Source of the DNA: an uncultured virus (IMG/VR IMGVR_UViG_3300025073_000045)
Lineage: Duplodnaviria > Heunggongvirae > Uroviricota > Caudoviricetes
Strand: one strand, 5' to 3'
Virus record (IMG/VR): IMGVR_UViG_3300025073_000045
Coordinates: 57,452-77,451 of that record
Length of the DNA stretch: 20,000 nt
The position numbers and the translations under genes were made by a program. The notes beneath the pieces were generated by a model that worked only from the letters and a program-made list of their open reading frames with translations, ran no database searches and was not told the DNA's origin. Shown piece after piece: positions 143 through 12,460 of this stretch (its first letter is position 1; every line of letters begins with the position of its first letter).

Positions 143-314
143 TTTTCTTAGCCTTAAATAATAAATATTTATTAAATTTTCTTTTAACCTTCCAAGCAAA
201 ATATATTGCTGTTATGTTTTGAAAATAATGTAACCCTATAAATGATGCAAATGGAGAAGATGCTATCTCATATAATAAAAATTCAGAAACTTGCTCTTTT
301 TGTTCTTGTGTCAT
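120..314 (-). CDS. Small hypothetical protein (64 aa)
   Basis: ATGA overlap with the stop of 311..2434; co-oriented with the gene run. Confidence 0.6.
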   Translation of the reverse strand: MTQEQKEQVSEFLLYEIASSPFASFIGLHYFQNITAIYFAWKVKRKFNKYLLFKAKKNGIKQSS

Positions 315-2434
315 AATTTATCTCCCAATTCTAAGAATCTTTTTGCAACATTAATCCAAGATAAGTTCTTAGACTGTTCTAATCCTTTTTGATGATAATC
401 ATACCAGTCAATATCATTGGTTAATAAATGTTTAACAGCATTTATAAAATTTTCTCTATGGTCTTTATTTTTTATCCAACCATCAACAATAATACCGGCA
501 TTTCCAACTCTTTCTCTCAAACAACCCCAATCTGAAGCAACTGCTGGAGTTCCTGCTGCTTGAGCTTCAATGGCTGTAATACAAAATGTTTCTAACCATG
601 TGCAAGGATATAACCATAATTTACTAGACATATATTCTTTTGCAAGATCTTTCTGATTATGATATCCTCTATAAATTAATCCAGGTGTTTCTTTCCAATA
701 ATTTGGATGTTTTCTAATATTATCTGGATAGTATCCAAAAACATGTAATTCTAATCTATTATCCCATTTTTTTAGTTCTTCAAAAATGGGTATCAACTCA
801 GTCATGCCTCTATCTGGATTACTTGAATATATTAATTTTGTAGGTATTCTTTCTACTTTTTGGTTAAATCTTGATAAATCTAAACCATTAGCAAAAATCT
901 CCATTTTACTAGTAGGTATAAATGGATATGCAGCCGTAAAGAATCTATAATGATATCTTGATAACACTAAAAATTTATCAAAATAGTTTATATTAATAGG
1001 ATTAATCCTGTTATAATAGTTTAAATCATGAGCCCAAAAATAAACTTTAGTCTTTGGATTCACAAATCTAAATTCTGGTAATCTTGACACTATTAAAGTA
1101 TGTATTTCATTTATCTTTTCAAAAGCATCAAATTTCTCTATAGGTTCCCAAGCTACACCATCAATGATTTTTGGATTACCACAATTATTAAAAACATAAA
1201 CTAAGTGACCTAATTTAGCAAGTTCTTTTGAAAGTTGTATTACTGCAATTTCAGATCCGCCAATTCCTTTCTCAGTGTTATCTGCGTCCCAAGTATGCCC
1301 AGCATCAGGTTTTACATAGAAAACTATTAACTGTTGTTTTCTTTTTACAACTTCATAAGTGTCTCTTTGAGCAGTTAAATATTCATACCTTGACCTAACA
1401 TCATCATAAACTTCTAGATTAACTAATGGTTTAAAAAACTCAGATCCTTCTGAGAATCGACCAGTCTGATCATAACAACTACTTAAATATGCATATGCTT
1501 GATGTATTCCTGCATAAGCAGCTATTTTAAGATATGGAATAGCTTCTGCATATTTAATTTCATTAAAAAGCTTAATTCCGTTATTAAAATTAATAATTCC
1601 CCAATCTACCATTTGTCCTTGTAGTTTTTTTGATTTTAATTCAATGACTGCTTTTAAAGGTGTTTTATTTTCTGGTACAGGCATTGAATATCTTTCAATC
1701 AAAGTAGCACTTAATAGTTCTGCATTACCTTCATTAAATCTAATAGTATCAGTAGAATTGGTATATTTGTCAAGTATTGATAAATTACCAAACCTTTCAA
1801 TCAAGAAATTGGTAAAATCATTAATGGGTATCGCTTTATCCGTTGATTTTCCAACCAAATGATTGATTTCCATAGTAGAATCTACTAATATTAAGAAATT
1901 TTCTCGTTCAGCAAATAATGCAAAATCTAAATCTAATCCGCCATGAAAGTAATTTAATTTTTTCCCTTTTAAACCTTTTAAGAAAGCTTTTACAAATGAA
2001 TTTGACAAAACTGCAGATTGCAAATCAGAATATCTAGTGAGAAATATACCCTTTTGTGTAATTCTCTGGGGAGATATAAATCCATTAAGAGTGTCATTAA
2101 CCTTTGTTGTGACTATACCAATATTATCAGCATGATTAATCAAATTTAAGAATTTATCTAAGTAATTATATTGTAAATCCAAAACACAATCACTATTTAA
2201 AAGCCAATATCCAGCATAATCTTCTTTACAGCTTAACCATTTTAATACAGTTTGATCGAATCCAAGATTACGGGTGCTAAGTTCAGTAGCTTCTGTCATC
2301 TTATTTGAAGAACTATTATCCCAAATAGTTAAATCAAACTTTGATTCATCAAATGTCTTAATTTGATTCATTAAGTTTTTTGTTAATTCTGGGGTTTCAT
2401 AATTAATTACTAAAATTGCAATCTTATTTTTCAT
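311..2434 (-). CDS. Multidomain glycosyltransferase: N-terminal GT2-like (GT-A), central TPR-like helices, C-terminal GT4 (GT-B)
   Basis: N-terminal IAILVINY...DNSS...NLGF...YWLLNSD is a GT2 pattern. YAEAIPYLKIA...AYAYLSSCY is TPR-like. C-terminal GIGGSE, YSSNPDRG and ETFCITAIEAQAAGTP (E-x7-E) are typical of GT4. Confidence 0.85.
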   Translation of the reverse strand: MKNKIAILVINYETPELTKNLMNQIKTFDESKFDLTIWDNSSSNKMTEATELSTRNLGFDQTVLKWLSCKEDYAGYWLLNSDCVLDLQYNYLDKFLNLINHADNIGIVTTKVNDTLNGFISPQRITQKGIFLTRYSDLQSAVLSNSFVKAFLKGLKGKKLNYFHGGLDLDFALFAERENFLILVDSTMEINHLVGKSTDKAIPINDFTNFLIERFGNLSILDKYTNSTDTIRFNEGNAELLSATLIERYSMPVPENKTPLKAVIELKSKKLQGQMVDWGIINFNNGIKLFNEIKYAEAIPYLKIAAYAGIHQAYAYLSSCYDQTGRFSEGSEFFKPLVNLEVYDDVRSRYEYLTAQRDTYEVVKRKQQLIVFYVKPDAGHTWDADNTEKGIGGSEIAVIQLSKELAKLGHLVYVFNNCGNPKIIDGVAWEPIEKFDAFEKINEIHTLIVSRLPEFRFVNPKTKVYFWAHDLNYYNRINPININYFDKFLVLSRYHYRFFTAAYPFIPTSKMEIFANGLDLSRFNQKVERIPTKLIYSSNPDRGMTELIPIFEELKKWDNRLELHVFGYYPDNIRKHPNYWKETPGLIYRGYHNQKDLAKEYMSSKLWLYPCTWLETFCITAIEAQAAGTPAVASDWGCLRERVGNAGIIVDGWIKNKDHRENFINAVKHLLTNDIDWYDYHQKGLEQSKNLSWINVAKRFLELGDKL

Positions 2435-4299
2435 ATTTTTTTCCTTAGATATTCAAGGTTTGCAGGATTTTGTTTGTCAATTGTATACCAGTCTGCTTTT
2501 CCTGTTCTTAAATCATGAGTATCTTTAAAATATCTTTTAAACATTTCTTTTATGTTCTCTAACCCATAATTTTCAACAGCATATTTTCTTATCTTTTCTG
2601 GATTAAGCTTCTCAGATGATTTACAAGCCCAGTAAATATCATTCATAGTTTTACATCTATAACCAGTTATTCCATGGAGGTTTGTTTCAACAAAAGCTCC
2701 ATAGTCACTGGTAATAATTGGAGTACCACATAACATGGCTTCAATTGGAGCATGACCAAATGGCTCAACATATAGACTAAAATAGATTAGAGCTTTAGCT
2801 TTTGATAAGTATTTAACTTTTTGCTTAAGTGGTAATACTCCTACTTCAACTACATGATCAAATACTTTATATACTGAACCCGCTTGAATGTCAGGATCAA
2901 ATATACTACCACCGCCTATAACTACAAGTTTTTTGCCTAATTGGTGAGTGACATCAATAGCAACTGATAAGCCTTTACCCCAAGTTTTCCTTCCCAAGAA
3001 TACATAATAATCATCTTTCTCTGCTTCAAATGGGTAATCATCTACATTAAAATATGCTGGGATAACATAATCATAGTTGTTTGGAAAATATGAGGGAGAG
3101 TTTTTATTCCACCTATAGTAACAAGCTGTTGCCCATGTGTATGATTCAAAAATTCTATCCGGTAAATATGATCCACCATGTCCTATTCCAGGTTCAATAC
3201 AAATACAATGAGATGCATAGACATCTGTGATAGGTCTAAAAGCATCCCCAAAGAAATTTAGAATAAAATCATGCTTTTTAACTCTTGACTCAAGACTTTC
3301 AATTGTATTCTTAATAAAAGCTTCAAAATCAAGACCTTCTTGATTAGTTAGATGGTCAAGAGCATTTTTATCTCTTTTGCCATGTATTTTATTATGCATG
3401 CTCTCAGAAACAACAGAAACAAATTCATCAATCTTCTCATCAATTTTGCTTCCTTCAACACCATAAACAATTACTTTATAGTCTAATTCTTTAAGCATCC
3501 TGCACATATAAATAATTTTAGTATTGAATGGATTATTAGGTGCTTCTTCCCATCCAAGTTTATAATCTGCTAAGCCTAATAGGTGAAACGTTGGTTTTTC
3601 TGGTTCTTTCAATTTTGTTTCAATAACTGAATTCACTATATACCCAACATGCCATGACATTTCATTGTTAGCAGCGGTTATAGTATCTGTAATAACCATA
3701 CCTAGTTTTTCAAGATCCTCAATTGATATCTGGTTAATATGCTCAGATCCTTCATCTGCTGGATTTCCAGTAACTCCTGGCCACATATGTTCTTCTCTTG
3801 GTATAGTTATTAATAAAAGTCCATTATCAGATAACCAAGATTTAACTTTATTAATTGTCTCAGCTGGATTGATTAAATGTTCAATAATCTCTCCCATTAT
3901 GATAACATCAAACTTTTCAAATGTTTTATATGTTTCAACATCTGCATTGATGTAGGGTAAAGCATATCTAAATTCTCCTAAGTGACATGCCTTTACATTT
4001 AATTCAAGACATTGAACTTTATTATAACCCAACATTTTAAGCTCATTTGAAAACAAACCAGACCAAGCTCCAATATCAAGAATTTTGATATCTTTACCTT
4101 TTACAGCACTAAGAGTTGATACTGCATTTTTTACAAAATCAAGTCTAGGTCTTATTAAAGGATTATTTGCTGAATCAAGCCATACATTCTCATTACCTCT
4201 ATAATATTCTTTAACAATCTCTCTATTATGAGGGGTATTTATACCTTTCATTATCTCTGAAGTAGCTTTCTTGAATTGTTCAGTACTTATTTTATTCAT
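2431..4299 (-). CDS. Class I SAM-dependent methyltransferase fused to a GT4 glycosyltransferase
   Basis: N-terminal ILDIGAWSG and FDVIIMGEIIEHL motifs (small-molecule/sugar MTase type). C-terminal FHLLGL..., FLGRKTWGKG and EPFGHAPIEAMLCGTPIITSDYGAF (GT4). Confidence 0.85.
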   Translation of the reverse strand: MNKISTEQFKKATSEIMKGINTPHNREIVKEYYRGNENVWLDSANNPLIRPRLDFVKNAVSTLSAVKGKDIKILDIGAWSGLFSNELKMLGYNKVQCLELNVKACHLGEFRYALPYINADVETYKTFEKFDVIIMGEIIEHLINPAETINKVKSWLSDNGLLLITIPREEHMWPGVTGNPADEGSEHINQISIEDLEKLGMVITDTITAANNEMSWHVGYIVNSVIETKLKEPEKPTFHLLGLADYKLGWEEAPNNPFNTKIIYMCRMLKELDYKVIVYGVEGSKIDEKIDEFVSVVSESMHNKIHGKRDKNALDHLTNQEGLDFEAFIKNTIESLESRVKKHDFILNFFGDAFRPITDVYASHCICIEPGIGHGGSYLPDRIFESYTWATACYYRWNKNSPSYFPNNYDYVIPAYFNVDDYPFEAEKDDYYVFLGRKTWGKGLSVAIDVTHQLGKKLVVIGGGSIFDPDIQAGSVYKVFDHVVEVGVLPLKQKVKYLSKAKALIYFSLYVEPFGHAPIEAMLCGTPIITSDYGAFVETNLHGITGYRCKTMNDIYWACKSSEKLNPEKIRKYAVENYGLENIKEMFKRYFKDTHDLRTGKADWYTIDKQNPANLEYLRKKI

Positions 4300-4310
4300 T
4301 ACTATTTCCT

Positions 4311-4607
4311 TTAATTTTTATTTATAATATCATTAATTGATTTAATTGATTTATTATCACTAACATTTTTTAAAATACCATATACCAAGCTTTCTAATGA
4401 CATCTCTTTTTCAATTTGTGTAATGTAAACTAATCTTATTACTAGAAAAAGTGCTACTAATACATAATAAATTGTACTTATTACTGTAGATGGGTTAAAC
4501 TTATCTAATATTAACCATGTTATCAATACTTGACTTAAATAAAAACCTTTCCGTATTGAATTACTCTTTAGCTTATATTCTGATATAATCTGGACATTAT
4601 TTCTCAT
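4311..4607 (-). CDS. Small predicted membrane protein (about 2 hydrophobic segments)
   Basis: Hydrophobic stretches FYLSQVLITWLIL and VISTIYYVLVALFLVIRLVYI; ATGA coupling to the upstream gene. Confidence 0.65.
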   Translation of the reverse strand: MRNNVQIISEYKLKSNSIRKGFYLSQVLITWLILDKFNPSTVISTIYYVLVALFLVIRLVYITQIEKEMSLESLVYGILKNVSDNKSIKSINDIINKN

Positions 4608-5626
4608 GACTCTTTTTCCAAATACTTTTTTACTTGTTTTAGAATATATTCACCAACTTGTGGTACAATACCTTTCCCTATCTGATCTAATACTTTATTT
4701 TCGCTTCCAATAAACAAGAAGTCTAAAGGTAGTCCCATAAGGCATGCTGATTCTCTTCCTGTAAGGAGTCTATGTTCCCAAGGATGTATGTACCTAGTTG
4801 CTGAAGACATGATAACTGGACCACATTTTGTTGAGTCCAGTCTTTTGTTGTTGATTCCTCCGTAGAGACCTTCTCCAGGACGAATACGAGACATTTTTTC
4901 AATTTTTTCTTCTGAATGTTTTGGAAAATGATCATTATGTAAAGTAACACCTTGTCTTCTAAGGTCATCAAGTTCTTCAAAGATAGGCCCAATAGATAGT
5001 TCAGCTCTATAATCTTTTTCTGGTGGTTCTAACATAAACCTAAAAGGAAATCTACTACCAATTGTAAATAGCCTATCTCTCACTTGAGGTATACCAACTT
5101 CAGTTGGGGTAATCCTATGCTCTTCAATATAATAATCATACAGAGGAACTTCTTCTTTTGAGATTTGATGCTTTAATATAAATCCAGCAGGAGTAGAATT
5201 AAATTGAACAAAGTTTTTCACAGAAGGTATATTTTCAAGAATGAATACTTTTGGTTTTCTAGCAATAATTTCTAATATAAATCTTACATATTCAAAATCT
5301 TGAAATTCTTTCATAGCCATAGTTTTTGCATTCTTGGAATTTCTAGAACTTGATGATATCTCTCCACAACTTGGACTTCCCCAAATAACATCAACTGGGT
5401 ATTGATGAAAAGCTTCCAGTTCACTTGAATACATAATAGATTGAAAATTGCTACGGAAAGTTTTTATATTAAAATAAGGTCGTGGTTCTAGACCCCATCT
5501 AGCATTCATACCTGCCCAAAGTGCTCCTAAAATAGGAAAACCTGCTCCACAATAGATACTACCAAAAGAAACTTTCGATATTGGATGTGGTATTAATTCA
5601 TCTTTAGTGCTTAGAATTTTACTCAT
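4604..5626 (-). CDS. DNA cytosine-C5 methyltransferase-fold protein, divergent (paralog 1)
   Basis: Motif I-like SIYCGAG, IV GSPSC, VI LENI, VIII PQVRDR, IX RLLTGRESACLMGLP, X QIGKGIVP. Confidence 0.85.
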   Translation of the reverse strand: MSKILSTKDELIPHPISKVSFGSIYCGAGFPILGALWAGMNARWGLEPRPYFNIKTFRSNFQSIMYSSELEAFHQYPVDVIWGSPSCGEISSSSRNSKNAKTMAMKEFQDFEYVRFILEIIARKPKVFILENIPSVKNFVQFNSTPAGFILKHQISKEEVPLYDYYIEEHRITPTEVGIPQVRDRLFTIGSRFPFRFMLEPPEKDYRAELSIGPIFEELDDLRRQGVTLHNDHFPKHSEEKIEKMSRIRPGEGLYGGINNKRLDSTKCGPVIMSSATRYIHPWEHRLLTGRESACLMGLPLDFLFIGSENKVLDQIGKGIVPQVGEYILKQVKKYLEKES

Positions 5627-5921
5627 TTCTAATACTTTTCCATAAGATTAAATAATTTATTAAATCTTTGATAGTATCATTTACTGATTCATTTGCAACA
5701 ACTTTGTTTGGATTATTAGTTAATTCTCTTAATCTTGCAAGCTTAGTACCAATTAGTACTTTACAAGATTGCTCTTGTGTAACTCCAGCAAAATCACCGG
5801 AATATTTAAAATTAGAAAGACCATCAATCTCTGCAGCATAGTCATTCCCCTTTTTTCTTAATGTTTCCAAACACTCTGAAAAATCTGATTCCGCTAATTT
5901 AATTATGTCAGCAATTAACAT
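5619..5921 (-). CDS. Nucleotide-modification-associated domain 1 (Nmad1/DUF1599-like, all-alpha NTP-PPase superfamily)
   Basis: Pattern KKGNDY...NF...KLARL...NESVNDTIKDLINY. Confidence 0.75.
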   Translation of the reverse strand: MLIADIIKLAESDFSECLETLRKKGNDYAAEIDGLSNFKYSGDFAGVTQEQSCKVLIGTKLARLRELTNNPNKVVANESVNDTIKDLINYLILWKSIRNE

Positions 5922-6672
5922 TCTTTAACCTCTCTATAGTATAAGAAATAGCATTATGATTTATGTCACACCCAATGAAATCTATATTTAATTCTTTTGC
6001 AACAACAACAGAAGTTCCTGAACCAACAAAAGGATCAAAGAATACTCCATCACTTGGACAACTTGAGTCTATAATTGGATATAATAAAGATTTTGGCTTT
6101 TGAGTAGGGTAACCAGTTCTCTCTGTTTTATCATTTTGACCTAGAATTGAAATGGTCCATACATCGTCTAATATTTTACCTCTTTGATCATAATATTTTT
6201 CTTTATCATAACCTCTTGGTGCAGTTTCTGAATATGGTTGTCTTACATATTTAGAATCTGGGTTGAAATAATAGTTCTCAGTTTTTGTATATCTTAATAT
6301 AGTATCATGTCTTTTTCCAAAATCTTTTTTCTTACGAGGTGCAGAATTATAGTACCATATTATTTCATTTCTGAAATTATGATCACCAAAAATACCATCA
6401 ATAAGTATTCTTATCCAATGGGAAATGATTGAATCACAATGAAAGTATAATAAACCAGTTGGTTTAAGAACCCTATGCATTTCTATTAATCTTGGAGTAT
6501 AGAATTCCAATATGTCTAATCTCACAGGTTTTAAATCTTTAAACTCCTTAAAATCTTTTCCAGTACCAAATAACACATCCCCATATATCAAATCTATACA
6601 CTTACTTGGTAATTCTTTGAGTAAGTATAGATTATCACATTGATAAACTTGATTTACTAGGATTTCATTCAT
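5908..6672 (-). CDS. Beta-class DNA amino-methyltransferase (N6-A/N4-C) with a variant catalytic motif
   Basis: IDLIYGDVLF at the DPPY/F position, RVLKPTG, NEIIWYY, YPTQKP, and motif I DPFVGSGT. Confidence 0.85.
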   Translation of the reverse strand: MNEILVNQVYQCDNLYLLKELPSKCIDLIYGDVLFGTGKDFKEFKDLKPVRLDILEFYTPRLIEMHRVLKPTGLLYFHCDSIISHWIRILIDGIFGDHNFRNEIIWYYNSAPRKKKDFGKRHDTILRYTKTENYYFNPDSKYVRQPYSETAPRGYDKEKYYDQRGKILDDVWTISILGQNDKTERTGYPTQKPKSLLYPIIDSSCPSDGVFFDPFVGSGTSVVVAKELNIDFIGCDINHNAISYTIERLKNVNC

Positions 6673-6979
6673 AAGAAATTATCTTATCATTACGTAAGAA
6701 ATTTAATTCTCTCGCACTTAATTCATATTCCTTTTCATTTGGAATAAAATCTATTAAAACTTGACAGAAGTTAACAGAGTCATCTATTTTCAATAACTCA
6801 AAATCTTTCTTTTCTTTAATAAGTTGACGATCGTCTGCATTAAGATGGCCTCTTCTTAAATCTTCCATTTGTTCAGCTAATTTAGCTGCAACAGTTTGTA
6901 ATAATACCATTTTTCTAGAAGCCATCTCTTTAATTCTAGAACCATTAATTGTTATTAGTATCGATTGAAAATTACTCAT
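6665..6979 (-). CDS. Hypothetical protein (104 aa)
   Basis: Overlap-coupled to both neighbours; no recognisable motif. Confidence 0.7.
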   Translation of the reverse strand: MSNFQSILITINGSRIKEMASRKMVLLQTVAAKLAEQMEDLRRGHLNADDRQLIKEKKDFELLKIDDSVNFCQVLIDFIPNEKEYELSARELNFLRNDKIISYE

Positions 6980-7965
6980 CCTATAACTCCTAAATCAATA
7001 TTTCTTTCATAATTGTATTTAATCTCACTTGCTATATGAGCAGCAACTTGTACTGGTATACTTCTACCAATTAAATCCAGCTTTGTTGAAAAACTTATAT
7101 GCCCAAATTGAAAATCTAATGGGAATCCTTGAAATGTAGCCGCTTCTCTTGGTGTAAGTACTCTATCATGCCAAGGATGTACATATTGAGTTTTTGATGA
7201 TGCAATAACTGGGCAAATCTTTTCAGGATCTAATCTTTTATTATTTTGAGTTCCATAAAAACTATCACCTGGTAAGAGCTTATTAAAACCTTGTTTTCTT
7301 TCTTCAGAATGATTAGGATGTTCATCATCATATAATTTTCTATCTTTTCTTAAAAGATCTAATACAATTAAAACTTCTCCAGCTTTTTTACCAGCGAGCA
7401 TTGTAGAAGGTTTAAGATACATAAAATCTAAATTCTTTAGCGAAAAGAAAATAAATAAACGTTTTCTAGACTGTGGCGTTCCATATATTTGTGAATCAAC
7501 ATTAACAATTTGAACACGATAATGATCTGGATATGAGAATGATTCTTTTGTTGATATACAATAAAGTTCATTATGCCTTACTTCAAAAAACCTAAGGAGA
7601 GAAGGTAAATATTCCATAACAATATATGGAGCATTTGTATAAAGTAATTTTACTAGAGCATGATAAAATTCAAAATCTTTAATGCCAAGAGTCTTTAAAC
7701 TTGAACGATCCTTTCTTTTCACTCCTAATGCAGAAATTTGACTACAGGATGGAGATGATATTAAAACTGTTGGAGTAGGATAATTTACTAATCCATCATC
7801 AAAATCATTACTAATACTTATATTAGGGAAATTATCATAAAAAGCTACCTTACCTTTATGTATAAACTCTCTATTATCCACATTAAAAAGCACATTATAA
7901 CCTTCTAATTGGAAGCCTAATAAATTACCTATGCCGCATTGAAAACCACCAACAGAAAATTTCAT
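6976..7965 (-). CDS. DNA cytosine-C5 methyltransferase-fold protein, divergent (paralog 2)
   Basis: Likely start is the ATG at 7965 (GGAG upstream, ATGA overlap with the previous stop) rather than 7998. Motifs: I-like FQCGIG, IV SSPSC, VI MEYL, VIII PQSRKR, IX RVLTPREAATFQGFP, X LIGRSIP. Confidence 0.85.
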   Translation of the reverse strand: MKFSVGGFQCGIGNLLGFQLEGYNVLFNVDNREFIHKGKVAFYDNFPNISISNDFDDGLVNYPTPTVLISSPSCSQISALGVKRKDRSSLKTLGIKDFEFYHALVKLLYTNAPYIVMEYLPSLLRFFEVRHNELYCISTKESFSYPDHYRVQIVNVDSQIYGTPQSRKRLFIFFSLKNLDFMYLKPSTMLAGKKAGEVLIVLDLLRKDRKLYDDEHPNHSEERKQGFNKLLPGDSFYGTQNNKRLDPEKICPVIASSKTQYVHPWHDRVLTPREAATFQGFPLDFQFGHISFSTKLDLIGRSIPVQVAAHIASEIKYNYERNIDLGVIG

Positions 7966-8606
7966 TGTTTCTCCATTAAATGAAGTGCTCTTACCCATTT
8001 ATTTCCATCATAATACATGAATGAGTTTAATATTTCAGATTGATAAATATCTTCTTTGATTGCTTTCCTTTTACATGTTTTTAGTAAAGCTTCTTTACCT
8101 TCATAAGAGATTCTAAATCCATTATTTTTATCAAATACATAATATGAAGGCCAAACATATAAAAGATTTGAGTCAATATCATTAAATTGATAATAACTTG
8201 AGTCTTTATATTGAAGATTAGATTTATGAGACTTTACTAATTCATGTAAAAAATTCTGATTTTCTAACCAAAAGGGTTCTTTAAAATAAGCATGTCGTGC
8301 TGTATAACAATATTCTTCAAAGAAGCTCATATACTTATGTATAGTCTTTATAGCACTTTTTGATTGAAAAGCTTTACAACATTCAAAACCATATCTTGCT
8401 AAAAGATTCTCTGAGCTCATCCACATTTGAACCACAGGATGACTCAAATATCTACCAGTTCCTTTTATTAAAATTTGTAAGATTTGGTATGCTTCAAGAA
8501 TTTGTTTATTTAAACGCTTATTATCAAGAAATTCTAAGCCTTTACATAAGTCTTTGAAATAGATAGTTTCAGCAAATTCTTTATCAGACAATAAAAAAGT
8601 TTGCAT
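7962..8606 (-). CDS. Pyrimidine-dimer DNA glycosylase/endonuclease V-like protein (MSMEG_6728-type)
   Basis: MQTFL...LDNKRLNKQILEAYQIL...HPVVQMW...SHKSNL..KD..YY...YVWP family pattern. Confidence 0.75.
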   Translation of the reverse strand: MQTFLLSDKEFAETIYFKDLCKGLEFLDNKRLNKQILEAYQILQILIKGTGRYLSHPVVQMWMSSENLLARYGFECCKAFQSKSAIKTIHKYMSFFEEYCYTARHAYFKEPFWLENQNFLHELVKSHKSNLQYKDSSYYQFNDIDSNLLYVWPSYYVFDKNNGFRISYEGKEALLKTCKRKAIKEDIYQSEILNSFMYYDGNKWVRALHLMEKQ

Positions 8607-9112
8607 TATATACTCGGTATTTCTATATTTGAATTATCTGAATTATTTATTGAAATAATCTTAATACCCTCATTTTCAAGTACTTTAACTACTTCAAAAT
8701 ACATGGTTTGAATTTTTAATATTTCATCTAAACTGAAAAGTTTTTCTGTTCTGACAAGTTTTCTTCTCTCAATAGAGTTTGAATCAGCATATACAAAGAA
8801 AACTTTTACAAATGGATCTTTTAAAGCTTCCATTATATATGTTTTATCATATTCTCTTTCAAAGAAAGTACCATAAACAAGTGATGAAAGTAATGACCTA
8901 TCAACTGCCACATTAATAAGTTCTCTTATTGGCCATATAGTAAGCCAAAAGAATTTTTGTAATTCTTCAATTAAATTTGTAAGTAAGAATTCTTTTGACA
9001 TCCCCAATACATCAAAACGTTTTTTAATGAGTGGAATGTTATTCTTTTTTGAAAAGGCTTCAGCTAACGTTGTTTTTCCTGATAAATCTGAGCCTTCAAA
9101 GATATAAATCAT
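8606..9112 (-). CDS. dNMP (thymidylate-kinase-like) P-loop kinase
   Basis: IFEGSDLSGKTT Walker A and VDRS motif; adjacent to the TS homologue. Confidence 0.8.
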   Translation of the reverse strand: MIYIFEGSDLSGKTTLAEAFSKKNNIPLIKKRFDVLGMSKEFLLTNLIEELQKFFWLTIWPIRELINVAVDRSLLSSLVYGTFFEREYDKTYIMEALKDPFVKVFFVYADSNSIERRKLVRTEKLFSLDEILKIQTMYFEVVKVLENEGIKIISINNSDNSNIEIPSI

Positions 9113-9138
9113 GTAATTAATCCCTTAATTTTACAAAA

Positions 9139-9146
9139 CAAATATA
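9139..9146 (-). promoter_or_regulatory. Candidate TAnnTTTG (-7 type) promoter element
   Basis: TATATTTG on the minus strand in an intergenic gap, 26 nt upstream of the ATG at 9112. Confidence 0.4.
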
Positions 9147-9157
9147 ATTCAGCTTTG

Positions 9158-10051
9158 TTAGAGTAAAAGAATTTTAAATTCATTTATAATTTCAGACCCT
9201 TTTAATAAAGCATTTTTCTGATAAATATATATGAGAGCATTTGCATATTGTTGACCAAAGGAACTGAGTTCATGATTATGATAGTAAAAAAAGCCTTCAC
9301 CTCTATCAAGTCTAAAAGCTATATTAGTTATTTCTAATCTTTCTTTCTCACCAAATCTCCAATCATCACAATAATCAAGGGAAGAGGTTTTTGATAATGC
9401 ATTTAGAGTATTTTGCACACTACCTGTAACATCTCTTTTCTTTTGATAGTACCCAAATGAAGCATTAAAGTTAAAATTTCCTAATTCAATTCCTAATACA
9501 GAGGCTAAATATCTTTGTAGCATTGTGTGATGAAAAACATCATATGGTAATAGATTCATTATATCAACAGTACGCATATATACAGAACAATGTAACTTAT
9601 TCTGAATTTTGAAGAAGTGAATATTTAATGTACAAGGCCTTCTATCCATTTCTTTTATGTAAAGATACTCAGGTTTCCACATTGTTAAAATAGCTTCTCG
9701 ATCTGCTGAAAGTTTTAATTTTTTTAAGATGTGTGGAATTTGTATTGTATATTCCTCACCATAACTATAATGAAATTCTCCATTTTCTTTTTCAAGTTTT
9801 CTTTTCCAAGCAGGTCTAAAAGTCCATGCTGATCCAGGATTTTGCATTTCCTTTTCCTCAAAAGCCAACCTGTTTGCTAGTTCAACAAAAGCCCATGACC
9901 AGTTTTTCTTATGGTTAATTAATGATAAAACAGGATTTGTAATTGTAAAACTAATTGGAGTAATTGTCTTAGCTTTTGCCCACAAAATACCTTCGTCTAA
10001 AGTTTTTTGAAGAATCTTTATATAAATTTCTTGAAAATTATCTGATGTCAT
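9158..10051 (-). CDS. Thymidylate-synthase-fold enzyme, dCMP-type (hydroxymethylase/methylase-like)
   Basis: RRPC140 catalytic Cys and YMRTVD. Asp171 lies 31 residues after the Cys, at the position of E. coli ThyA Asn177. Confidence 0.8.
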   Translation of the reverse strand: MTSDNFQEIYIKILQKTLDEGILWAKAKTITPISFTITNPVLSLINHKKNWSWAFVELANRLAFEEKEMQNPGSAWTFRPAWKRKLEKENGEFHYSYGEEYTIQIPHILKKLKLSADREAILTMWKPEYLYIKEMDRRPCTLNIHFFKIQNKLHCSVYMRTVDIMNLLPYDVFHHTMLQRYLASVLGIELGNFNFNASFGYYQKKRDVTGSVQNTLNALSKTSSLDYCDDWRFGEKERLEITNIAFRLDRGEGFFYYHNHELSSFGQQYANALIYIYQKNALLKGSEIINEFKILLL

Positions 10052-10104
10052 TTTTTCTCTTGAGTTTTAATTCTTAATCAAATAAATTGATGCAATTTAA
10101 TAAA

Positions 10105-10362
10105 TTATAAAACCTCATGTGGAAACTTCCGTGAAAAAAGTATATCTGCTTTTGTCATCAATTTATTGATATAATAACTTGAATAAGTTTCTAAAGCTTT
10201 ATTAAATTCTAAACTTCTAAATAGCATTGATACAAATGATTTATTATTCATAATAATAGTATTTGTATCTTCAAAGAAGTAAAAACCTGCAGTAACATTA
10301 TTTGAGACTATAACTTGCTTGTCTATAAATCGTTTATAGATTCCTTCAGACATATTTATCAT
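10105..10362 (-). CDS. Hypothetical protein (85 aa)
   Basis: ATGA coupling to 10359..10619. Confidence 0.6.
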   Translation of the reverse strand: MINMSEGIYKRFIDKQVIVSNNVTAGFYFFEDTNTIIMNNKSFVSMLFRSLEFNKALETYSSYYINKLMTKADILFSRKFPHEVL

Positions 10363-10619
10363 GATGTTATATCTTTTGGTTGTTCATCTAATGATGGATC
10401 TATAATTGCTAATTCTGGAAAAGATCCGGTATTTTTGTACTCATCAATAAGATTAATAGTTACTTCTTCTAGTCTTGCTTTTAATTTGCTTAAATCAATA
10501 AAAACAGTTGATGGGATTGAAATAGCCATCGATTGAGAAAATTCTTGTCTCTGTACACCTTTTTGTTGAAAAATAACTGTGATCATGCTTTCATATTGGT
10601 CAACTGCTGTTCTTGCCAT
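10359..10619 (-). CDS. Hypothetical protein (86 aa)
   Basis: Strong AAGGAG RBS upstream of the ATG. Confidence 0.7.
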   Translation of the reverse strand: MARTAVDQYESMITVIFQQKGVQRQEFSQSMAISIPSTVFIDLSKLKARLEEVTINLIDEYKNTGSFPELAIIDPSLDEQPKDITS

Positions 10620-10639
10620 TTTAAACTCCTTTATAATTT

Positions 10640-10661
10640 AGGCCCTCAACTTAGAGGGCCT
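10640..10661. other. GC-rich stem-loop (8-bp perfect stem, 6-nt loop)
   Basis: AGGCCCTC-aactta-GAGGGCCT; no adjacent 3' U-tract on either strand. Confidence 0.7.
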
Positions 10662-10684
10662 GTGCAAAAAATAACTCTACCAAT

Positions 10685-10711
10685 CTATCTATACATTTCG
10701 ATTATAGATAG
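10685..10711. repeat. Inverted repeat (9-bp stem, 9-nt loop)
   Basis: CTATCTATA-catttcgat-TATAGATAG. Confidence 0.6.
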
Positions 10712-10732
10712 TTTTTAAGTCATAAGATCTCC

Positions 10733-10966
10733 TTATGTTATTGGATAAATCTTTCCTCCATGAGAGCCACAATCTGGACTTATGCATTCACCTTTTGAGT
10801 TAACTTGTATGTATCCACCTTGTATTTTACAACCTTCGCATAATACAACTGGATATAATTCATTTTTATCATCTTCAGGAGTGCTTAAACCATAAAAATC
10901 ATACTTAGTTGAATCCTCAAGAGGTTTAAATAATTTATCATGACATTGTTTACAAAAATCAGCCAC
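10733..10966 (-). CDS. Small Cys-rich putative Zn-binding phage protein
   Basis: CKQC, CEGC and C-x4-C-x2-H motifs; GTG start with GGAGG upstream. Confidence 0.7.
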   Translation of the reverse strand: MADFCKQCHDKLFKPLEDSTKYDFYGLSTPEDDKNELYPVVLCEGCKIQGGYIQVNSKGECISPDCGSHGGKIYPIT

Positions 10967-11204
10967 TTAACCTCCCATAACCATAATCAACTAATTCTTT
11001 TACAGTGAAAAGATTTTCAACATCCCCCTCTGGTATAGAAATATCAAAAAGTGATTCACACTCCATTAGAATTTCTATAACATCTAGTGAATCAGCACCT
11101 AAATCATTTATTAAGTGTGAGCTTTCTGTAATTTCAGAAAAATGAACACCCAACTTATTCTCTAAGATACTCTTAAATTTCAAAAGTATAGCATCTCTTT
11201 CCAA
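10959..11204 (-). CDS. acpP: Acyl carrier protein
   Basis: Acidic 81-aa protein with the DLGADSLD phosphopantetheinylation motif and FDISIP; TTG start with AGGAGG RBS. Confidence 0.9.
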   Translation of the reverse strand: MERDAILLKFKSILENKLGVHFSEITESSHLINDLGADSLDVIEILMECESLFDISIPEGDVENLFTVKELVDYGYGRLSG

Positions 11205-11213
11205 AACAACCTC

Positions 11214-11864
11214 CTAATATTTAGATTCAATTCTAAACTGGTTTACGTTTGATTTTCTAAAGTAAAGATTAAGAATTTCAAGTGGTTCCATTATTTCAAG
11301 CATAAGAACAATATAAGCCTCATATGCTAATAAATAGTGTTTCTTGAATTTTGCTTCATCTGTTGGATATTGAGAGCATTTCCAAGGTTTATTCTTCAAA
11401 CAATTCATTGTAATACCAAGTCTCAAAACAAAATCAGTAACAGCTTCATCAATACTTACAACCTCTTTAGCTTGATGTACTACTTTTTCAAGTGAAATAT
11501 TAATATCAGTATGTTTTATACCTGAAAGTATACCCAATTCTGTTAAGAAATGTAAGCCATCTGCAAGTTCTTCTTTTGCATGTAAAAGTTGCTCATTTTG
11601 AGTTTCAACATTCTCACTATCATCAAACCATGCTTCAAGTGATTCTCCAATCTCCTCCATTGTTCTCCAAGCCATATCTTTCAATTGTGCTTGGCCTTTT
11701 CCATCATGAATATTGACTGGCATATCTTGAGTCCATCTTAAGCCATTCTGGTGTTCAAGAGGTGTATATTTTTGAGCTAATTGCTCTTGTCTATCAAAAA
11801 TAAGTTCATATATCTTTGATAAGTGTTCTTCATTAAATTGATCTGGAAAATCATATACGTTCAT
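11214..11864 (-). CDS. All-alpha (dimeric dUTPase/dCTPase-like) dNTP pyrophosphatase
   Basis: EEIGE...EELAD acidic metal-binding motifs, KNKPWK, and C-terminal YFRKSNVNQFR. Start placed at the ATG at 11864 because AGGAG lies upstream (the ORF track starts at 11903). Confidence 0.75.
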   Translation of the reverse strand: MNVYDFPDQFNEEHLSKIYELIFDRQEQLAQKYTPLEHQNGLRWTQDMPVNIHDGKGQAQLKDMAWRTMEEIGESLEAWFDDSENVETQNEQLLHAKEELADGLHFLTELGILSGIKHTDINISLEKVVHQAKEVVSIDEAVTDFVLRLGITMNCLKNKPWKCSQYPTDEAKFKKHYLLAYEAYIVLMLEIMEPLEILNLYFRKSNVNQFRIESKY

Positions 11865-11868
11865 TTTA

Positions 11869-12090
11869 CTACTCCTGGTTTGGTAATTTATCACATTTTT
11901 CACATAAGACTAATGAATCATTATCAAGAATTTTTCCTTCTTTACCTTTAAATGATTCTACATATGTATGTCCACAACTTAATTCATACATATAATCTGT
12001 TTTCATACTACTGCAAAATTCTTCATTAGATACCTTTCCACAAATTCCTGAACTTCCACCATACATAAATCTTTTGACAGTTCTTAACAT
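11869..12090 (-). CDS. Small putative Zn-ribbon protein
   Basis: LSCGH...CEKC motifs; tightly packed in the gene run. Confidence 0.6.
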   Translation of the reverse strand: MLRTVKRFMYGGSSGICGKVSNEEFCSSMKTDYMYELSCGHTYVESFKGKEGKILDNDSLVLCEKCDKLPNQE

Positions 12091-12091
12091 C

Positions 12092-12460
12092 TTATACCTG
12101 ATTAATACTTTTTAATGTTAATATATTTATTTCATCTCTTAATTTTTGAAAGGCTTCTGTCAATTGTTGCTTTTCAATTTTAATATTTATACTTCTAGTA
12201 ATAAATAATTCTATCTCTTGTGTAATCTTGCCTTTGTATATATACCCAAGAAATTTTTTATTCAAGTGCTTGCTAATCCTTACTTCAAAAAAACCATGTA
12301 TTGGTTTTACATACCAACATACTTTACTCTCCCTAATTACCTCTGACATAACAATATATTTATCATCATCTTGTCCACCAGACCAATATAATAAGAATTC
12401 CTTGTCAGGATTTTTAAGCATATAGCTTAATACCAATTTTTCTTTTACTGCATCAAACAT
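12092..12460 (-). CDS. Hypothetical protein (122 aa)
   Basis: Abuts both neighbours; no recognisable motif. Confidence 0.65.
   Translation of the reverse strand: MFDAVKEKLVLSYMLKNPDKEFLLYWSGGQDDDKYIVMSEVIRESKVCWYVKPIHGFFEVRISKHLNKKFLGYIYKGKITQEIELFITRSINIKIEKQQLTEAFQKLRDEINILTLKSINQV

What the first reader, a model, noticed from the sequence alone, without database searches (positions are those of the whole stretch)
311..11864. Candidate undescribed phage cytosine-hypermodification system
Seen: a co-oriented block of about 11.5 kb encodes a dNTP pyrophosphatase, an ACP, a dCMP-type TS homologue, a dNMP kinase, a glycosylase-like protein, two C5-MTase-fold paralogs, an amino-MTase, Nmad1, an MTase-GT4 fusion and a GT2-TPR-GT4 fusion. 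Established: T4 uses dCMP hydroxymethylase, dNMP kinase, dCTPase and glucosyltransferases to replace C with glucosyl-hmC, and Nmad1 is associated with base-modification clusters. Inference: this looks like the same logic with extra layers (atypical C5-MTase folds, ACP, a methylated multi-sugar glycan). A pre-replicative C5-modifying enzyme next to two post-replicative C5-attacking enzymes is paradoxical, because both target C5. That suggests sequential, non-methylation chemistry or partial substitution.
Basis: partly seen in the sequence, partly recalled or inferred. Interest (0 to 1): 0.88.

Follow-up and report, generated by a model that had tools for sequence, protein, structure and literature searches.

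The report
Phage cytosine-replacement kit with odd methyltransferases
An uncultured phage carries enzymes that probably swap the cytosine in its DNA for a modified form, tightly linked to unusual methyltransferase-like enzymes whose chemistry is unknown, while the neighbouring sugar-adding enzymes may decorate either the DNA or the virus particle.

Summary
The gene block is real: 14 co-oriented, tightly packed genes on the minus strand inside the replication module of a 121-kb phage contig. It comprises an all-alpha NTP pyrophosphatase, a thymidylate-synthase homologue and a dNMP kinase. The synthase homologue has the dCMP-type Asp, a MilA-like fold and Arg at the ThyA-143 position. The core also holds two C5-methyltransferase-fold paralogs that have Lys/Arg where canonical enzymes have the motif X Asn.

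Across IMG/VR, 20 of 22 loci with this methyltransferase family carry an Asp-type synthase homologue within 8 kb. The two exceptions are cut by contig ends. None of 54 loci with canonical Asn-type relatives has one. The phage also has ThyX, so the homologue is not needed for dTMP.

I read this as pre-replicative replacement of dC, most likely by 5-hydroxymethyl-dC, followed by undescribed post-replicative chemistry.

The ACP, DenV-like protein, amino-methyltransferase, Nmad1-like protein and both glycosyltransferase fusions are lineage-specific cargo. Close homologues of one glycosyltransferase domain sit in tail-fibre or capsid modules, so the sugar target is open.

The scan has met this locus before on other DNA (e1-1163941). 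No paper describing the pairing was found.

The parts
11214..11903 (-). All-alpha NTP pyrophosphatase (dUTPase_2/MazG-like), 229 aa. It is the predicted dCTP-clearing enzyme. The likely true start is the ATG at 11864.
   Evidence: Pfam dUTPase_2 at 29.4 bits. PHROG 12184 at E 5.5e-26. Homologues occur in 5 of 12 related loci. No BLAST similarity to T4 gp56.
10959..11204 (-). Acyl carrier protein, 81 aa, with a DSL serine motif. Lineage-specific cargo.
   Evidence: Pfam PP-binding. NCBIfam NF002148 at 75.1 bits against a cut-off of 71. Matches in 0 of 12 related loci.
10733..10966 (-). Cys-rich 77-aa protein of unknown function.
   Evidence: PHROG 2210 at E 5.9e-11. Matches in 0 of 12 related loci.
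10105..10619 (-). Two small ORFs (86 and 85 aa) of unknown function.
   Evidence: No family above threshold.
9158..10051 (-). Thymidylate-synthase homologue 'TS297' with a MilA-like fold. It has Cys140, Asp171 (ThyA N177), Asp163 (ThyA D169), Arg137 (ThyA L143), Thr161 and Arg118. Predicted dCMP C5-hydroxymethylase.
   Evidence: AF2 model with pLDDT 92.4. Foldseek ranks 1-7 are MilA, TM 0.73-0.78.
8606..9112 (-). P-loop dNMP/thymidylate-kinase-like protein, 168 aa.
   Evidence: Pfam Thymidylate_kin at 26.9 bits against a cut-off of 27. PHROG 761. BLASTP homologues in 4 of 12 related loci, and Thymidylate_kin-type genes by Pfam in others.
7962..8606 (-). DenV/Pyr_excise-like protein (MSMEG_6728-like), 214 aa. 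Lineage-specific cargo.
   Evidence: Pfam Pyr_excise at 40.9 bits, residues 24-78 only. NCBIfam NF038085 at 74.8 bits against a cut-off of 100. Matches in 0 of 12 related loci.
6976..7998 (-). C5-methyltransferase-fold paralog b, 340 aa. Motif IV is SPSC, motif VI is EY, and motif X is Gly-Arg.
   Evidence: Pfam DNA_methylase at 81.3 bits. Alignments. Orthologues in L008, L012 and L029.
6665..6979 (-). Helical 104-aa protein conserved between the two paralogs.
   Evidence: Homologues in the same position in L008 and L012. No family. The Atlas model is helical.
5908..6672 (-). N6/N4 amino-methyltransferase, 254 aa, with DVLF in place of DPPY. Lineage-specific cargo.
   Evidence: Pfam N6_N4_Mtase at 151.8 bits. 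Matches in 0 of 12 related loci. 104 of 120 homologues have D[IV]L[YF].
5619..5921 (-). Nmad1/DUF1599-like 100-aa protein, below threshold.
   Evidence: Pfam DUF1599 at 23.6 bits against a cut-off of 25. PHROG 6802 at E 1.6e-11.
4604..5626 (-). C5-methyltransferase-fold paralog a, 340 aa. Motif IV is SPSC, motif VI is EN, and motif X is Gly-Lys318.
   Evidence: AF2 model with pLDDT 90.4. Foldseek gives 3g7u first and CmoX 8yf3 second.
4311..4607 (-). 98-aa protein with two hydrophobic helices.
   Evidence: Read from the sequence. No family.
2431..4299 (-). Fusion of a class I (UbiG/BioC-like) methyltransferase and a GT4/GT-B glycosyltransferase, 622 aa.
   Evidence: Homologues of the GT domain lie in structural modules.
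311..2434 (-). Fusion of a GT2-like domain, a helical linker and a GT4 glycosyltransferase, 707 aa.
   Evidence: Pfam Glycos_transf_1. The N-terminus is GT2-like by the ESM Atlas only. The best annotated homologue lies beside a major capsid gene.

Best explanation
The window is part of the replication module of an uncultured phage of about 121 kb. I read its contents in three parts.

(1) A conserved pre-replicative kit replaces dC. The all-alpha NTP pyrophosphatase turns dCTP into dCMP. The Asp-type, MilA-fold thymidylate-synthase homologue adds a one-carbon group at C5 of dCMP, most likely giving 5-hydroxymethyl-dCMP. The dNMP kinase starts its phosphorylation so that the phage PolA can build it into DNA.

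(2) Two paralogous DNA C5-methyltransferase-fold enzymes then act on phage DNA. They keep the catalytic Cys, Glu and Arg residues and the adenosyl-binding residues, but have Lys/Arg instead of the motif X Asn. Their family occurs essentially only beside Asp-type TS homologues. I therefore think they most likely rework or extend the C5 substituent made by the TS route, or add a non-methyl group, and are not ordinary methylases.

(3) ACP, the DenV-like protein, the amino-methyltransferase, the Nmad1-like protein and the two glycosyltransferase fusions are lineage-specific cargo. The glycosyltransferases build a methylated glycan either on the hydroxymethyl base or on virion proteins.

What is shown: gene content, active-site residues, folds and gene linkage. 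What is inferred: substrates, products and order of action.

My sub-odds:
- Pre-replicative dC replacement: 0.75.
- The product is 5-hydroxymethyl: 0.55.
- The methyltransferase-like enzymes act on the TS-derived base: 0.45.
- The glycan is on DNA: 0.4.
For: - The Asp at ThyA-177 is invariant in 24 of 24 family members, and Cys146 and Asp169 are retained.
- The TS297 model (pLDDT 92.4) matches the CMP hydroxymethylase MilA at Foldseek ranks 1-7 with TM 0.73-0.78, including the five-helix C-terminal extension. ThyA structures give about 0.55-0.60.
- The MilA ribose markers Ala176 and Lys133' are Thr161 and Arg118 here, which is the deoxy type (criteria from passages of PMC5175136).
- The phage has its own ThyX and dCMP deaminase.
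- The closest relatives L008 and L012 keep the order pyrophosphatase - TS - kinase - paralog b - 104-aa protein - paralog a.
- Of 76 IMG/VR loci found with the methyltransferase alignment, 22 hold family members. Their 27 ORFs have motif X K in 24, R in 1, S in 1 and unresolved in 1. Of these 22 loci, 20 hold an Asp169/Asp177 TS homologue within 8 kb. The other 54 loci hold distant relatives (39 Asn, 15 unresolved, 0 Lys/Arg) and have none.
- The family falls into 15 clusters at 70% identity. The TS-methyltransferase gap is 0 nt or less in 14 of the 20 loci.
- In a search of 1.84 billion representatives, the 34 best scorers have no Asn at motif X (20 K, 4 R, 7 C, 1 S, 1 A, 1 gap). Of the other 116 listed, 98 have Asn.
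- The Lys column aligns with M.HhaI Asn304. That position is Arg350 in CmoX, where it holds the carboxymethyl group (PMC12783734, section 10).
- C5-methyltransferases can chemically derivatise 5hmC in DNA (PMC7176277 passage).
Against: - No DNA chemistry was measured.
- ThyA-143 is Arg. It is not the Asp/Glu of tested 5-hydroxymethyl-dCMP synthases, nor the Leu of methyl-forming enzymes, so the product cannot be read from published signatures (PMC13326640, sections 24 and 28).
- Engineered Lys/Arg methyltransferases still methylate with SAM (PMC13288465 passages), so the paralogs could be plain methylases.
- Seven of the 34 best family representatives have Cys, and one each has Ser or Ala, at motif X. 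A cationic residue is therefore not universal.
- One of the three search patterns required G[KR], which biases motif X counts, though not the TS contrast.
- Many of the 22 loci are related phages and are not independent.
- If replacement is complete, a C5-attacking enzyme has no ordinary substrate. That fits my reading, but it equally fits incomplete replacement.
- The pyrophosphatase shows no similarity to T4 gp56, and its nucleotide preference is unknown.
Confidence: 0.5

Rival explanations
1. The two paralogs are conventional or carboxy-SAM-dependent transferases acting on unmodified cytosine at specific sites. They would make 5mC or 5-carboxymethyl-C, as CmoX does. The TS route would replace dC only partly or serve another purpose, so the two routes run in parallel and not in sequence.
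For: - All SAM-adenosyl and catalytic motifs are conserved.
- Lys/Arg at this position confers carboxy-SAM use in engineered enzymes, which keep SAM methylation (PMC13288465 passages). CmoX has Arg there (PMC12783734, section 10).
- CmoX 8yf3 is the second-best structural match of the paralog a model.
Against: - No CmoA was found. TIGR00740 found nothing in the 87.5%-complete bin, and no CmoA-type hit appeared on the contig.
- No AsnB-like CmoY is present.
- Motif IV is SPSC, not the SPPC used to define CmoX.
- The family profile scores lower on CmoX (81.8 bits) than on HaeIII (107.8 bits) or HhaI (93.6 bits).
- The near-obligate linkage to Asp-type TS homologues is unexplained if the two routes are independent.
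Confidence: 0.25
2. The two glycosyltransferase fusions do not touch DNA. They would build a methylated glycan on virion proteins, for example the 1036-aa collagen-repeat fibre or the capsid, or on a host envelope polymer. They would simply be inserted in the early-gene region.
For: - Homologues of the GT domain of the 622-aa fusion lie in structural neighbourhoods in 4 of 4 non-self contexts, and 0 of 4 have a TS gene. The contexts are S-CAM7 between the baseplate and tail-fibre genes, L023 beside a 1026-aa beta-helix protein, L024 near a capsid gene, and L025 after an 1821-aa collagen protein and before a gp38-like adhesin.
- The best annotated homologue of the 707-aa protein follows a major capsid gene, inside a cluster of glycosyltransferase and methyltransferase genes.
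- The contig encodes a 1036-aa collagen-repeat protein.
- The cassette is absent from the closest relative L008, where paralog a abuts the primase gene.
- There is no similarity to T4 beta-GT.
Against: - The cassette overlaps or abuts the modification genes in one co-oriented early block.
- Different sugar genes recur in the same module of relatives. L012 has a GT2-methyltransferase fusion. L015 has UDP-glucose dehydrogenase plus a GT2-GT4 fusion. L041 has GT25, and L041 and L044 have a cellulase-like protein, a 2OG oxygenase and a TylF-like methyltransferase. Varied sugar genes around a constant base-modification core are the pattern of hypermodification clusters.
- GT-B enzymes resembling BshA/MshA act on 5hmC DNA, and GT-B hits are linked with ThyS and dCMP deaminase (bioRxiv 10.1101/2023.12.21.572611, sections 8 and 9).
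- More distant homologues in phiM7 and DLP6 lie in early regions.
Confidence: 0.5
3. The TS homologue is a dCMP methylase, so the phage builds 5-methylcytosine DNA as Xp12 does, and the paralogs top up residual C to the same 5mC.
For: - Asp at ThyA-177 is shared with dCMP methylases (PMC13326640, section 24).
- This would dissolve the paradox, because both routes would give one product.
Against: - ThyA-143 is Arg, not the bulky hydrophobic residue linked with methyl products.
- The fold and the C-terminal extension match the hydroxymethylase MilA, not ThyA.
- The loss of the motif X Asn across the methyltransferase family is unexplained.
Confidence: 0.12
4. There is no system. The block would be ordinary nucleotide-metabolism genes and orphan anti-restriction methylases that happen to be neighbours.
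For: Phage replication modules often hold TS, kinase and methylase genes. The promoter and terminator scans gave no sign of a dedicated unit.
Against: - The linkage is 20 of 22 loci against 0 of 54.
- TS and methyltransferase genes abut or overlap in 14 of 20 loci.
- ThyX makes the TS homologue redundant for dTMP.
- The Asp177 signature is invariant.
Confidence: 0.05

Closest known systems
Phage T4 glucosyl-hydroxymethylcytosine pathway (gp56 dCTPase, gp42 dCMP hydroxymethylase, gp1 dNMP kinase, alpha/beta-glucosyltransferases)
   Same: It follows the same logic of clearing dCTP, modifying dCMP at C5 with a TS homologue that has Asp at ThyA-177 and Asp at ThyA-169, and then phosphorylating the product. 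GT-B-fold transferases lie nearby.
   Different: - ThyA-143 is Arg here and Asp in gp42.
- TS297 has a MilA-type C-terminal extension that gp42 lacks.
- There is no sequence similarity to gp56 or beta-GT.
- T4 has no C5-methyltransferase-fold partner.
MilA, the CMP 5-hydroxymethylase of mildiomycin biosynthesis (PDB 5JNH, 5B6D, 5B6E, 5JP9)
   Same: It is the best structural match, TM 0.73-0.78 over 308-328 columns, including the five-helix C-terminal region. It is also specific for cytosine through the Asp (PMC5175136 passages).
   Different: The ribose-preference residues Ala176 and Lys133' are Thr161 and Arg118 here, as in deoxynucleotide enzymes. MilA has Asp at ThyA-143 (PMC13326640, section 24), and here it is Arg. 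The context is phage replication, not antibiotic synthesis.
CmoA-CmoX-CmoY of Synechococcus phage S-B43 (5-carboxymethylcytosine and its glycine amide; PDB 8YF3)
   Same: It has a DNA C5-methyltransferase fold with a cationic residue at the M.HhaI Asn304 position. CmoX is the second-best structural match of paralog a.
   Different: No CmoA or CmoY is present. Motif IV is SPSC and not SPPC, and paralog a has Lys where CmoX has Arg. The family is linked to Asp-type TS homologues, which the CmoX paper does not list among the gene neighbours it reports (section 13).
ThyS-associated glycosyltransferase gene clusters surveyed in phage metaviromes (Pyle et al., bioRxiv 10.1101/2023.12.21.572611)
   Same: GT-A and GT-B enzymes lie near a TS homologue, a dCMP deaminase, a DNA polymerase and methyltransferases. 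The GT-B enzymes resemble BshA/MshA.
   Different: That survey does not describe the non-Asn C5-methyltransferase family or its linkage to the TS homologue in the sections I read. Its supplementary tables were not available to me, so this locus type may be listed there.
5-hydroxy-dCMP synthases of RB69 and DLP3 with arabinosyl transferases (PMC13326640)
   Same: A TS homologue with Asp at ThyA-177 makes a hydroxyl handle for sugars before replication.
   Different: The diagnostic Asp169-to-Asn change is absent, since Asp163 is invariant in 24 of 24 members. The flavin enzyme 9IQC ranks only 34th structurally.

Membership tests
T4-type 5-hydroxymethyl-dCMP synthase (gp42-like) | TS fold with the catalytic Cys and with Asp at ThyA Asn177 | tested here: met
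   Cys140 and Asp171 are present. Asp is invariant in 24 of 24 family members.
T4-type 5-hydroxymethyl-dCMP synthase (gp42-like) | Acidic residue at ThyA Leu143 (criterion from PMC13326640, section 24) | tested here: not met
   Arg137 is invariant in the family, while T4 gp42 has Asp in the same column.
5-hydroxy-dCMP synthase (RB69 gp48 type) | Asp169-to-Asn substitution (PMC13326640, section 28) | tested here: not met
   Asp163 is retained in 24 of 24 members.
MilA-type cytidylate hydroxymethylase | Fold with a five-helix C-terminal extension | tested here: met
   Foldseek ranks 1-7 are MilA, TM 0.73-0.78. The model has five C-terminal helices.
MilA-type cytidylate hydroxymethylase | Ribose-preference residues Ala176 and Lys133' (PMC5175136) | tested here: not met
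   Thr161 and Arg118 occupy these positions, mapped through the T4 gp42 alignment.
Canonical DNA C5-methyltransferase (HhaI/HaeIII type) | Motif I GxG, motif IV catalytic Cys, motif VI Glu, motif VIII RxR | tested here: met
   G27, G29, C87, E131, R183 and R185 are invariant in 20 orthologues of paralog a and across the 12-member family alignment.
Canonical DNA C5-methyltransferase (HhaI/HaeIII type) | Pro-Cys dipeptide in motif IV and Asn in motif X (Gly-Asn). That these are canonical is recalled knowledge, and it matches the PDB alignments. | tested here: not met
   Both paralogs have Ser-Cys. Motif X is Gly-Lys in paralog a and Gly-Arg in paralog b, aligned to HhaI FGNSV and HaeIII IGNAV.
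CmoX DNA carboxymethyltransferase system | SPPC motif plus an Arg equivalent to R350 (PMC12783734, section 13) | tested here: not met
   Both paralogs have SPSC. Paralog a has Lys and paralog b has Arg.
CmoX DNA carboxymethyltransferase system | Phage-encoded carboxy-SAM synthase CmoA and, often, the amide ligase CmoY nearby | tested here: not met
   No such Pfam or NCBIfam hit appears on the 121-kb contig. TIGR00740 is absent from the whole bin, which is 87.5% complete.
Methyltransferase + 5mYOX/TET + glycosyltransferase post-replicative pathway | A TET/JBP-type 2OG dioxygenase next to the methyltransferase | tested here: not met
   Pfam found no Tet_JBP or 2OG-oxygenase among the 177 proteins I scanned out of the 180 ORFs I called on the contig. 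The two ORFs that cross locus boundaries were not scanned.
T4-type DNA glucosyltransferases | Sequence similarity to T4 beta-glucosyltransferase | tested here: not met
   BLASTP gives E 2.7 and 0.16. The alpha-GT was not compared.
ThyS-associated glycosyltransferase gene cluster (Pyle et al.) | A GT-A or GT-B enzyme within about ten genes of a TS homologue, with a dCMP deaminase nearby | tested here: met
   The GT fusions lie 7 and 8 genes from TS297, and the dCMP deaminase lies 3 genes beyond them.

The most novel reading that the evidence does not exclude
The non-Asn (Lys/Arg/Cys) C5-methyltransferase-fold family is a new class of DNA base-tailoring enzyme. It would use Cys-C6 covalent catalysis on 5-hydroxymethylcytosine, or on another TS-derived base, already in phage DNA, and would swap or extend the C5 side chain. 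It would be obligately paired with a new Arg143/Asp177 clade of thymidylate-synthase homologues. In this phage the product would then carry a methylated oligosaccharide. The result would be a cytosine hypermodification of a kind not yet described.
Probability: 0.3. Interest if true: 0.85.

Novelty: new variant of a known kind. Interest (0 to 1): 0.66.

Why it matters
Phage DNA hypermodifications decide whether restriction enzymes, CRISPR systems and sequencing chemistries can read a genome, and each new pathway has supplied new enzymes for epigenetic tools. Here a gene pair recurs in many uncultured phages and joins a dCMP-modifying enzyme to a DNA enzyme that attacks the same carbon. That arrangement makes little sense under known chemistry.

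The question can be tested directly by expressing three or four genes in E. coli and weighing the nucleosides. If the methyltransferase-like enzymes act on 5-hydroxymethylcytosine, they would be the first natural enzymes of this fold to do so. They could also serve as reagents for labelling that base. If they are plain methylases, the result would show that TS-based replacement is incomplete in these phages.

Tried and rejected
- Megablast of the whole window against 50,697 phage records found nothing. Protein searches found only relatives below 40% identity.
- The idea that the fused methyltransferase domain is CmoA was rejected. Its best NCBIfam hits are UbiG and BioC types, and no CmoA model matched.
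- The idea that the pyrophosphatase is a gp56 orthologue was not supported by BLASTP, E 15.
- The GT2 call for the 707-aa N-terminus failed in Pfam. BLASTP against the GT2 fusions of relatives gave E 0.063 and 0.16. Only the ESM Atlas supports it.
- The 104-aa conserved protein gave no family and no usable Atlas feature hit.
- The promoter scan found 78 sites against 79.8 expected. The terminator scan found 2 against 3.4 expected. Neither is informative.
- Literature searches for Nmad1 and DUF1599 found nothing relevant to DNA modification.
- Searches for a description of a TS homologue paired with a C5-methyltransferase found none. This is my basis for calling the pairing undescribed, within that library only.
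- I considered that 'PSC' defines the family. I rejected this because the residue before the Cys is P in 10, S in 10 and D in 9 of the 34 best representatives.

Full report
**Setting.**
- The window is positions 45246-65245 (reverse strand) of a 121,445-bp contig. The contig sits in a 739-kb, 75-contig bin of about 30% G+C.
- I called 180 ORFs on the contig. I scanned 177 of them with Pfam: 28 from the window, 23 from the downstream stretch and 126 from the rest. Two ORFs that cross locus boundaries were skipped.
- The contig encodes capsid, tail-tube, lysozyme, collagen-repeat fibre, DnaB, DnaG, PolA, RecA, ligase, ThyX and dCMP deaminase proteins. I saw no ribosomal or other clearly cellular genes.
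- I take the contig to be a phage genome or most of one. It shows no terminal overlap. It may be a passenger in the bin, which is rated 87.5% complete at 0.74 Mb.
- An IMG/VR contig carries the same locus at 100% protein identity.

**The observation.**
- From 11903 down to 311, fourteen genes plus two small ORFs run on the minus strand. Gaps are at most 113 nt and many stop and start codons overlap.
- The kinase (26.9 bits against a cut-off of 27) and Nmad1/DUF1599 (23.6 bits against 25) fall just below Pfam cut-offs.
- The 'glycosylase-like' protein matches Pyr_excise only over residues 24-78.
- The GT2-like N-terminus of the 707-aa protein is seen only by the ESM Atlas, not by Pfam.

**The TS homologue.**
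- Alignments with B. subtilis ThyA, 23 relatives and T4 gp42 place Cys140 at ThyA Cys146, Asp163 at Asp169, Asp171 at Asn177 and Arg137 at Leu143. All four are invariant in 24 of 24 sequences.
- Sections 24 and 28 of PMC13326640 give the meaning of these positions. Asp at 177 marks dCMP use. Asn at 169 marks the flavin-dependent 5-hydroxy-dCMP synthases. Position 143 tracks methyl products (bulky hydrophobic residue) against hydroxymethyl products (Asp/Glu).
- The window enzyme is therefore dCMP-type and not the 5-hydroxy type. Its Arg at 143 fits no tested class.
- A confident model (pLDDT 92.4) matches the CMP hydroxymethylase MilA at Foldseek ranks 1-7, TM 0.73-0.78. The match includes a five-helix C-terminal extension that ThyA and gp42 lack.
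- MilA's ribose-preference residues, Ala176 and Lys133' (passages of PMC5175136), are Thr161 and Arg118 here, which is the deoxynucleotide pattern.
- The phage also has ThyX and a dCMP deaminase. Taken together, the most economical reading is a dCMP C5-hydroxymethylase feeding DNA synthesis, with the product still unproven.

**The methyltransferase-fold paralogs.**
- Both keep motif I, the motif II acid, the catalytic Cys, the motif VI Glu and the motif VIII RxR. They therefore look active and bind an adenosyl cofactor.
- Two features depart from the canon. Motif IV is Ser-Pro-Ser-Cys. The motif X Asn is Lys in paralog a and Arg in paralog b.
- The profile alignment puts this column on M.HhaI Asn304. 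That position is Arg350 in the natural carboxymethyltransferase CmoX, where it holds the carboxymethyl group (PMC12783734, section 10).
- Engineered Lys/Arg variants at this position gain carboxy-SAM use while keeping SAM methylation (passages of PMC13288465).
- The paralog a model (pLDDT 90.4) matches a prophage methyltransferase first and CmoX second.
- By sequence, however, the family is no closer to CmoX than to HaeIII or HhaI. No CmoA or CmoY is present on the contig or in the bin.

**Linkage.**
- Thirteen IMG/VR loci hold relatives of the TS homologue, and one of them is the twin contig.
- BLASTP finds the methyltransferase family in 7 of the 12 others. Extended loci from the same contigs add three more (L041, L044, L045), giving 10 of 12. 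One locus ends 65 nt after a TS gene, and one distant locus shows none.
- The closest relatives, L008 and L012, share the order pyrophosphatase - TS - kinase - paralog b - 104-aa protein - paralog a.
- More distant relatives carry a second Asp-type TS of about 245 aa, also with Arg at 143. It lies directly upstream of a single family member.
- Searching from the methyltransferase side gave 76 loci.
  - In the 22 loci with family members, 20 have an Asp169/Asp177 TS within 8 kb. The two misses are cut by contig ends.
  - In the 54 loci with distant relatives, none has a TS. Motif X there is Asn in 39, unresolved by my pattern in 15, and Lys/Arg in 0.
- The family members form 15 clusters at 70% identity. 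The TS-methyltransferase gap is 0 nt or less in 14 of 20 loci.
- Caveats: one of the three search patterns demanded G[KR], and the phages are related to each other.
- In 1.84 billion representatives, the 34 best scorers have no Asn at motif X (20 K, 4 R, 7 C, 1 S, 1 A, 1 gap). Of the next 116, 98 have Asn.
- The trait that defines the family is thus the loss of Asn, not 'PSC' and not strictly a cation.

**Mechanism.**
- The steps shown are the residues, the folds and the linkage. The rest is inferred.
- I infer this sequence. The pyrophosphatase supplies dCMP and removes dCTP. The TS homologue makes 5-hydroxymethyl-dCMP. The kinase and host enzymes raise it to the triphosphate, and PolA incorporates it.
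- The paralogs then flip the modified base and attack C6 with the Cys. The enlarged or cationic motif X pocket lies beside the C5 side chain, and the enzymes change that side chain or add a non-methyl group.
- C5-methyltransferases can perform substitution chemistry on 5hmC in vitro (passage of PMC7176277).
- The main rival is that the paralogs methylate or carboxymethylate ordinary C while TS-based replacement is partial.

**Cargo genes.**
- ACP, the Cys-rich protein, the DenV-like protein, the amino-methyltransferase, Nmad1 and both GT fusions have 0 of 12 BLASTP matches in related loci.
- The slot between the paralogs holds other genes elsewhere, such as AdoMet decarboxylase and DUF3326 in L008.
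- Evidence for a virion target of the GT fusions:
  - Homologues of the GT domain of the 622-aa fusion lie in tail-fibre, collagen-protein or capsid neighbourhoods in 4 of 4 non-self contexts.
  - The best annotated homologue of the 707-aa protein follows a major capsid gene.
- Evidence for a DNA target:
  - Different sugar genes recur in the same module of relatives (L012, L015, L041 and L044).
  - The Pyle et al. preprint reports GT-B enzymes associated with ThyS and dCMP deaminase (sections 8 and 9).
- I leave the target open at roughly even odds.

**Comparison and novelty.**
- The system works like the T4 pathway at the nucleotide stage, but it fails membership tests for gp42 (position 143), gp56 and beta-GT.
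- It resembles MilA in fold but not in sugar preference. It resembles CmoX in the motif X idea but lacks CmoA, CmoY and the SPPC motif.
- My literature searches found no description of the TS-methyltransferase pairing. The supplementary tables of the Pyle preprint were not available to me.
- Earlier notes of this scan describe the same locus on other DNA (e1-1163941). They also describe Lys-type methyltransferases tied to Asp-type TS homologues in other phages (e1-6029943, e1-5940917 and others). I used them as leads and re-derived the linkage independently.
- I class the finding as a new variant of a known kind, with interest 0.66.

Noticed in passing
L015:12043-13989 (same gene as L048:5863-7809): The second Asp-type TS homologue of this relative is interrupted by an intein. 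Pfam finds Intein_splicing and LAGLIDADG_3 domains. The insertion is exactly at the catalytic Cys, giving a 648-aa ORF.
   Followed up: partly
L008:13226-14618: In the closest relative, the slot between the 104-aa protein and paralog a holds an S-adenosylmethionine decarboxylase (AdoMet_dc, E 2.5e-13) and a DUF3326 protein (E 6.6e-76). The window has the amino-methyltransferase and Nmad1 in that slot. A SAM-derivative enzyme between the two paralogs may bear on their cofactor.
   Followed up: no
window 5908-6672 (-): The N6/N4 methyltransferase has Asp-Val-Leu-Phe where this class normally has Asp-Pro-Pro-Tyr. Of 120 listed homologues, 104 have D[IV]L[YF], so this is a large subfamily trait and not a local defect.
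   Followed up: partly
G000 contig C38:36361-37266 and 66748-67206: The phage encodes ThyX and a dCMP deaminase as well as the ThyA-family homologue. In relative L012, ThyX lies directly upstream of the TS homologue.
   Followed up: yes
G000 contig C38:107995-111105: A 1036-aa protein with seven collagen triple-helix repeat stretches lies in the structural module. It is a candidate protein target for the glycosyltransferases. L025 has an 1821-aa collagen protein directly upstream of a homologous GT.
   Followed up: partly
L041:4736-6405 and 11320-12150; L044:2639-3379 and 4577-6502: More distant relatives carry a cellulase-like sugar-binding protein (PF12876), 2OG-Fe(II) oxygenases, a TylF-like O-methyltransferase and a GT25 enzyme in the same replication module as the TS-methyltransferase pair.
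   Followed up: no
L018:12685-15240, L032:7992-10415, L041:12384-14807, L044:11534-13969: In these relatives the family A DNA polymerase carries an N-terminal uracil-DNA-glycosylase-superfamily domain. The window phage's 1005-aa PolA showed no UDG hit.
   Followed up: no
G000 (whole bin): The bin is 739 kb and rated 87.5% complete, yet 121 kb of it is this phage contig. The phage may be a binning passenger, so the bin is not good evidence for the host.
   Followed up: no
G000 contig C38:44877-45134, and L018, L032, L041, L044: A small histone H1-like Hc1 protein is encoded next to the replication genes in the window phage and in four relatives.
   Followed up: no
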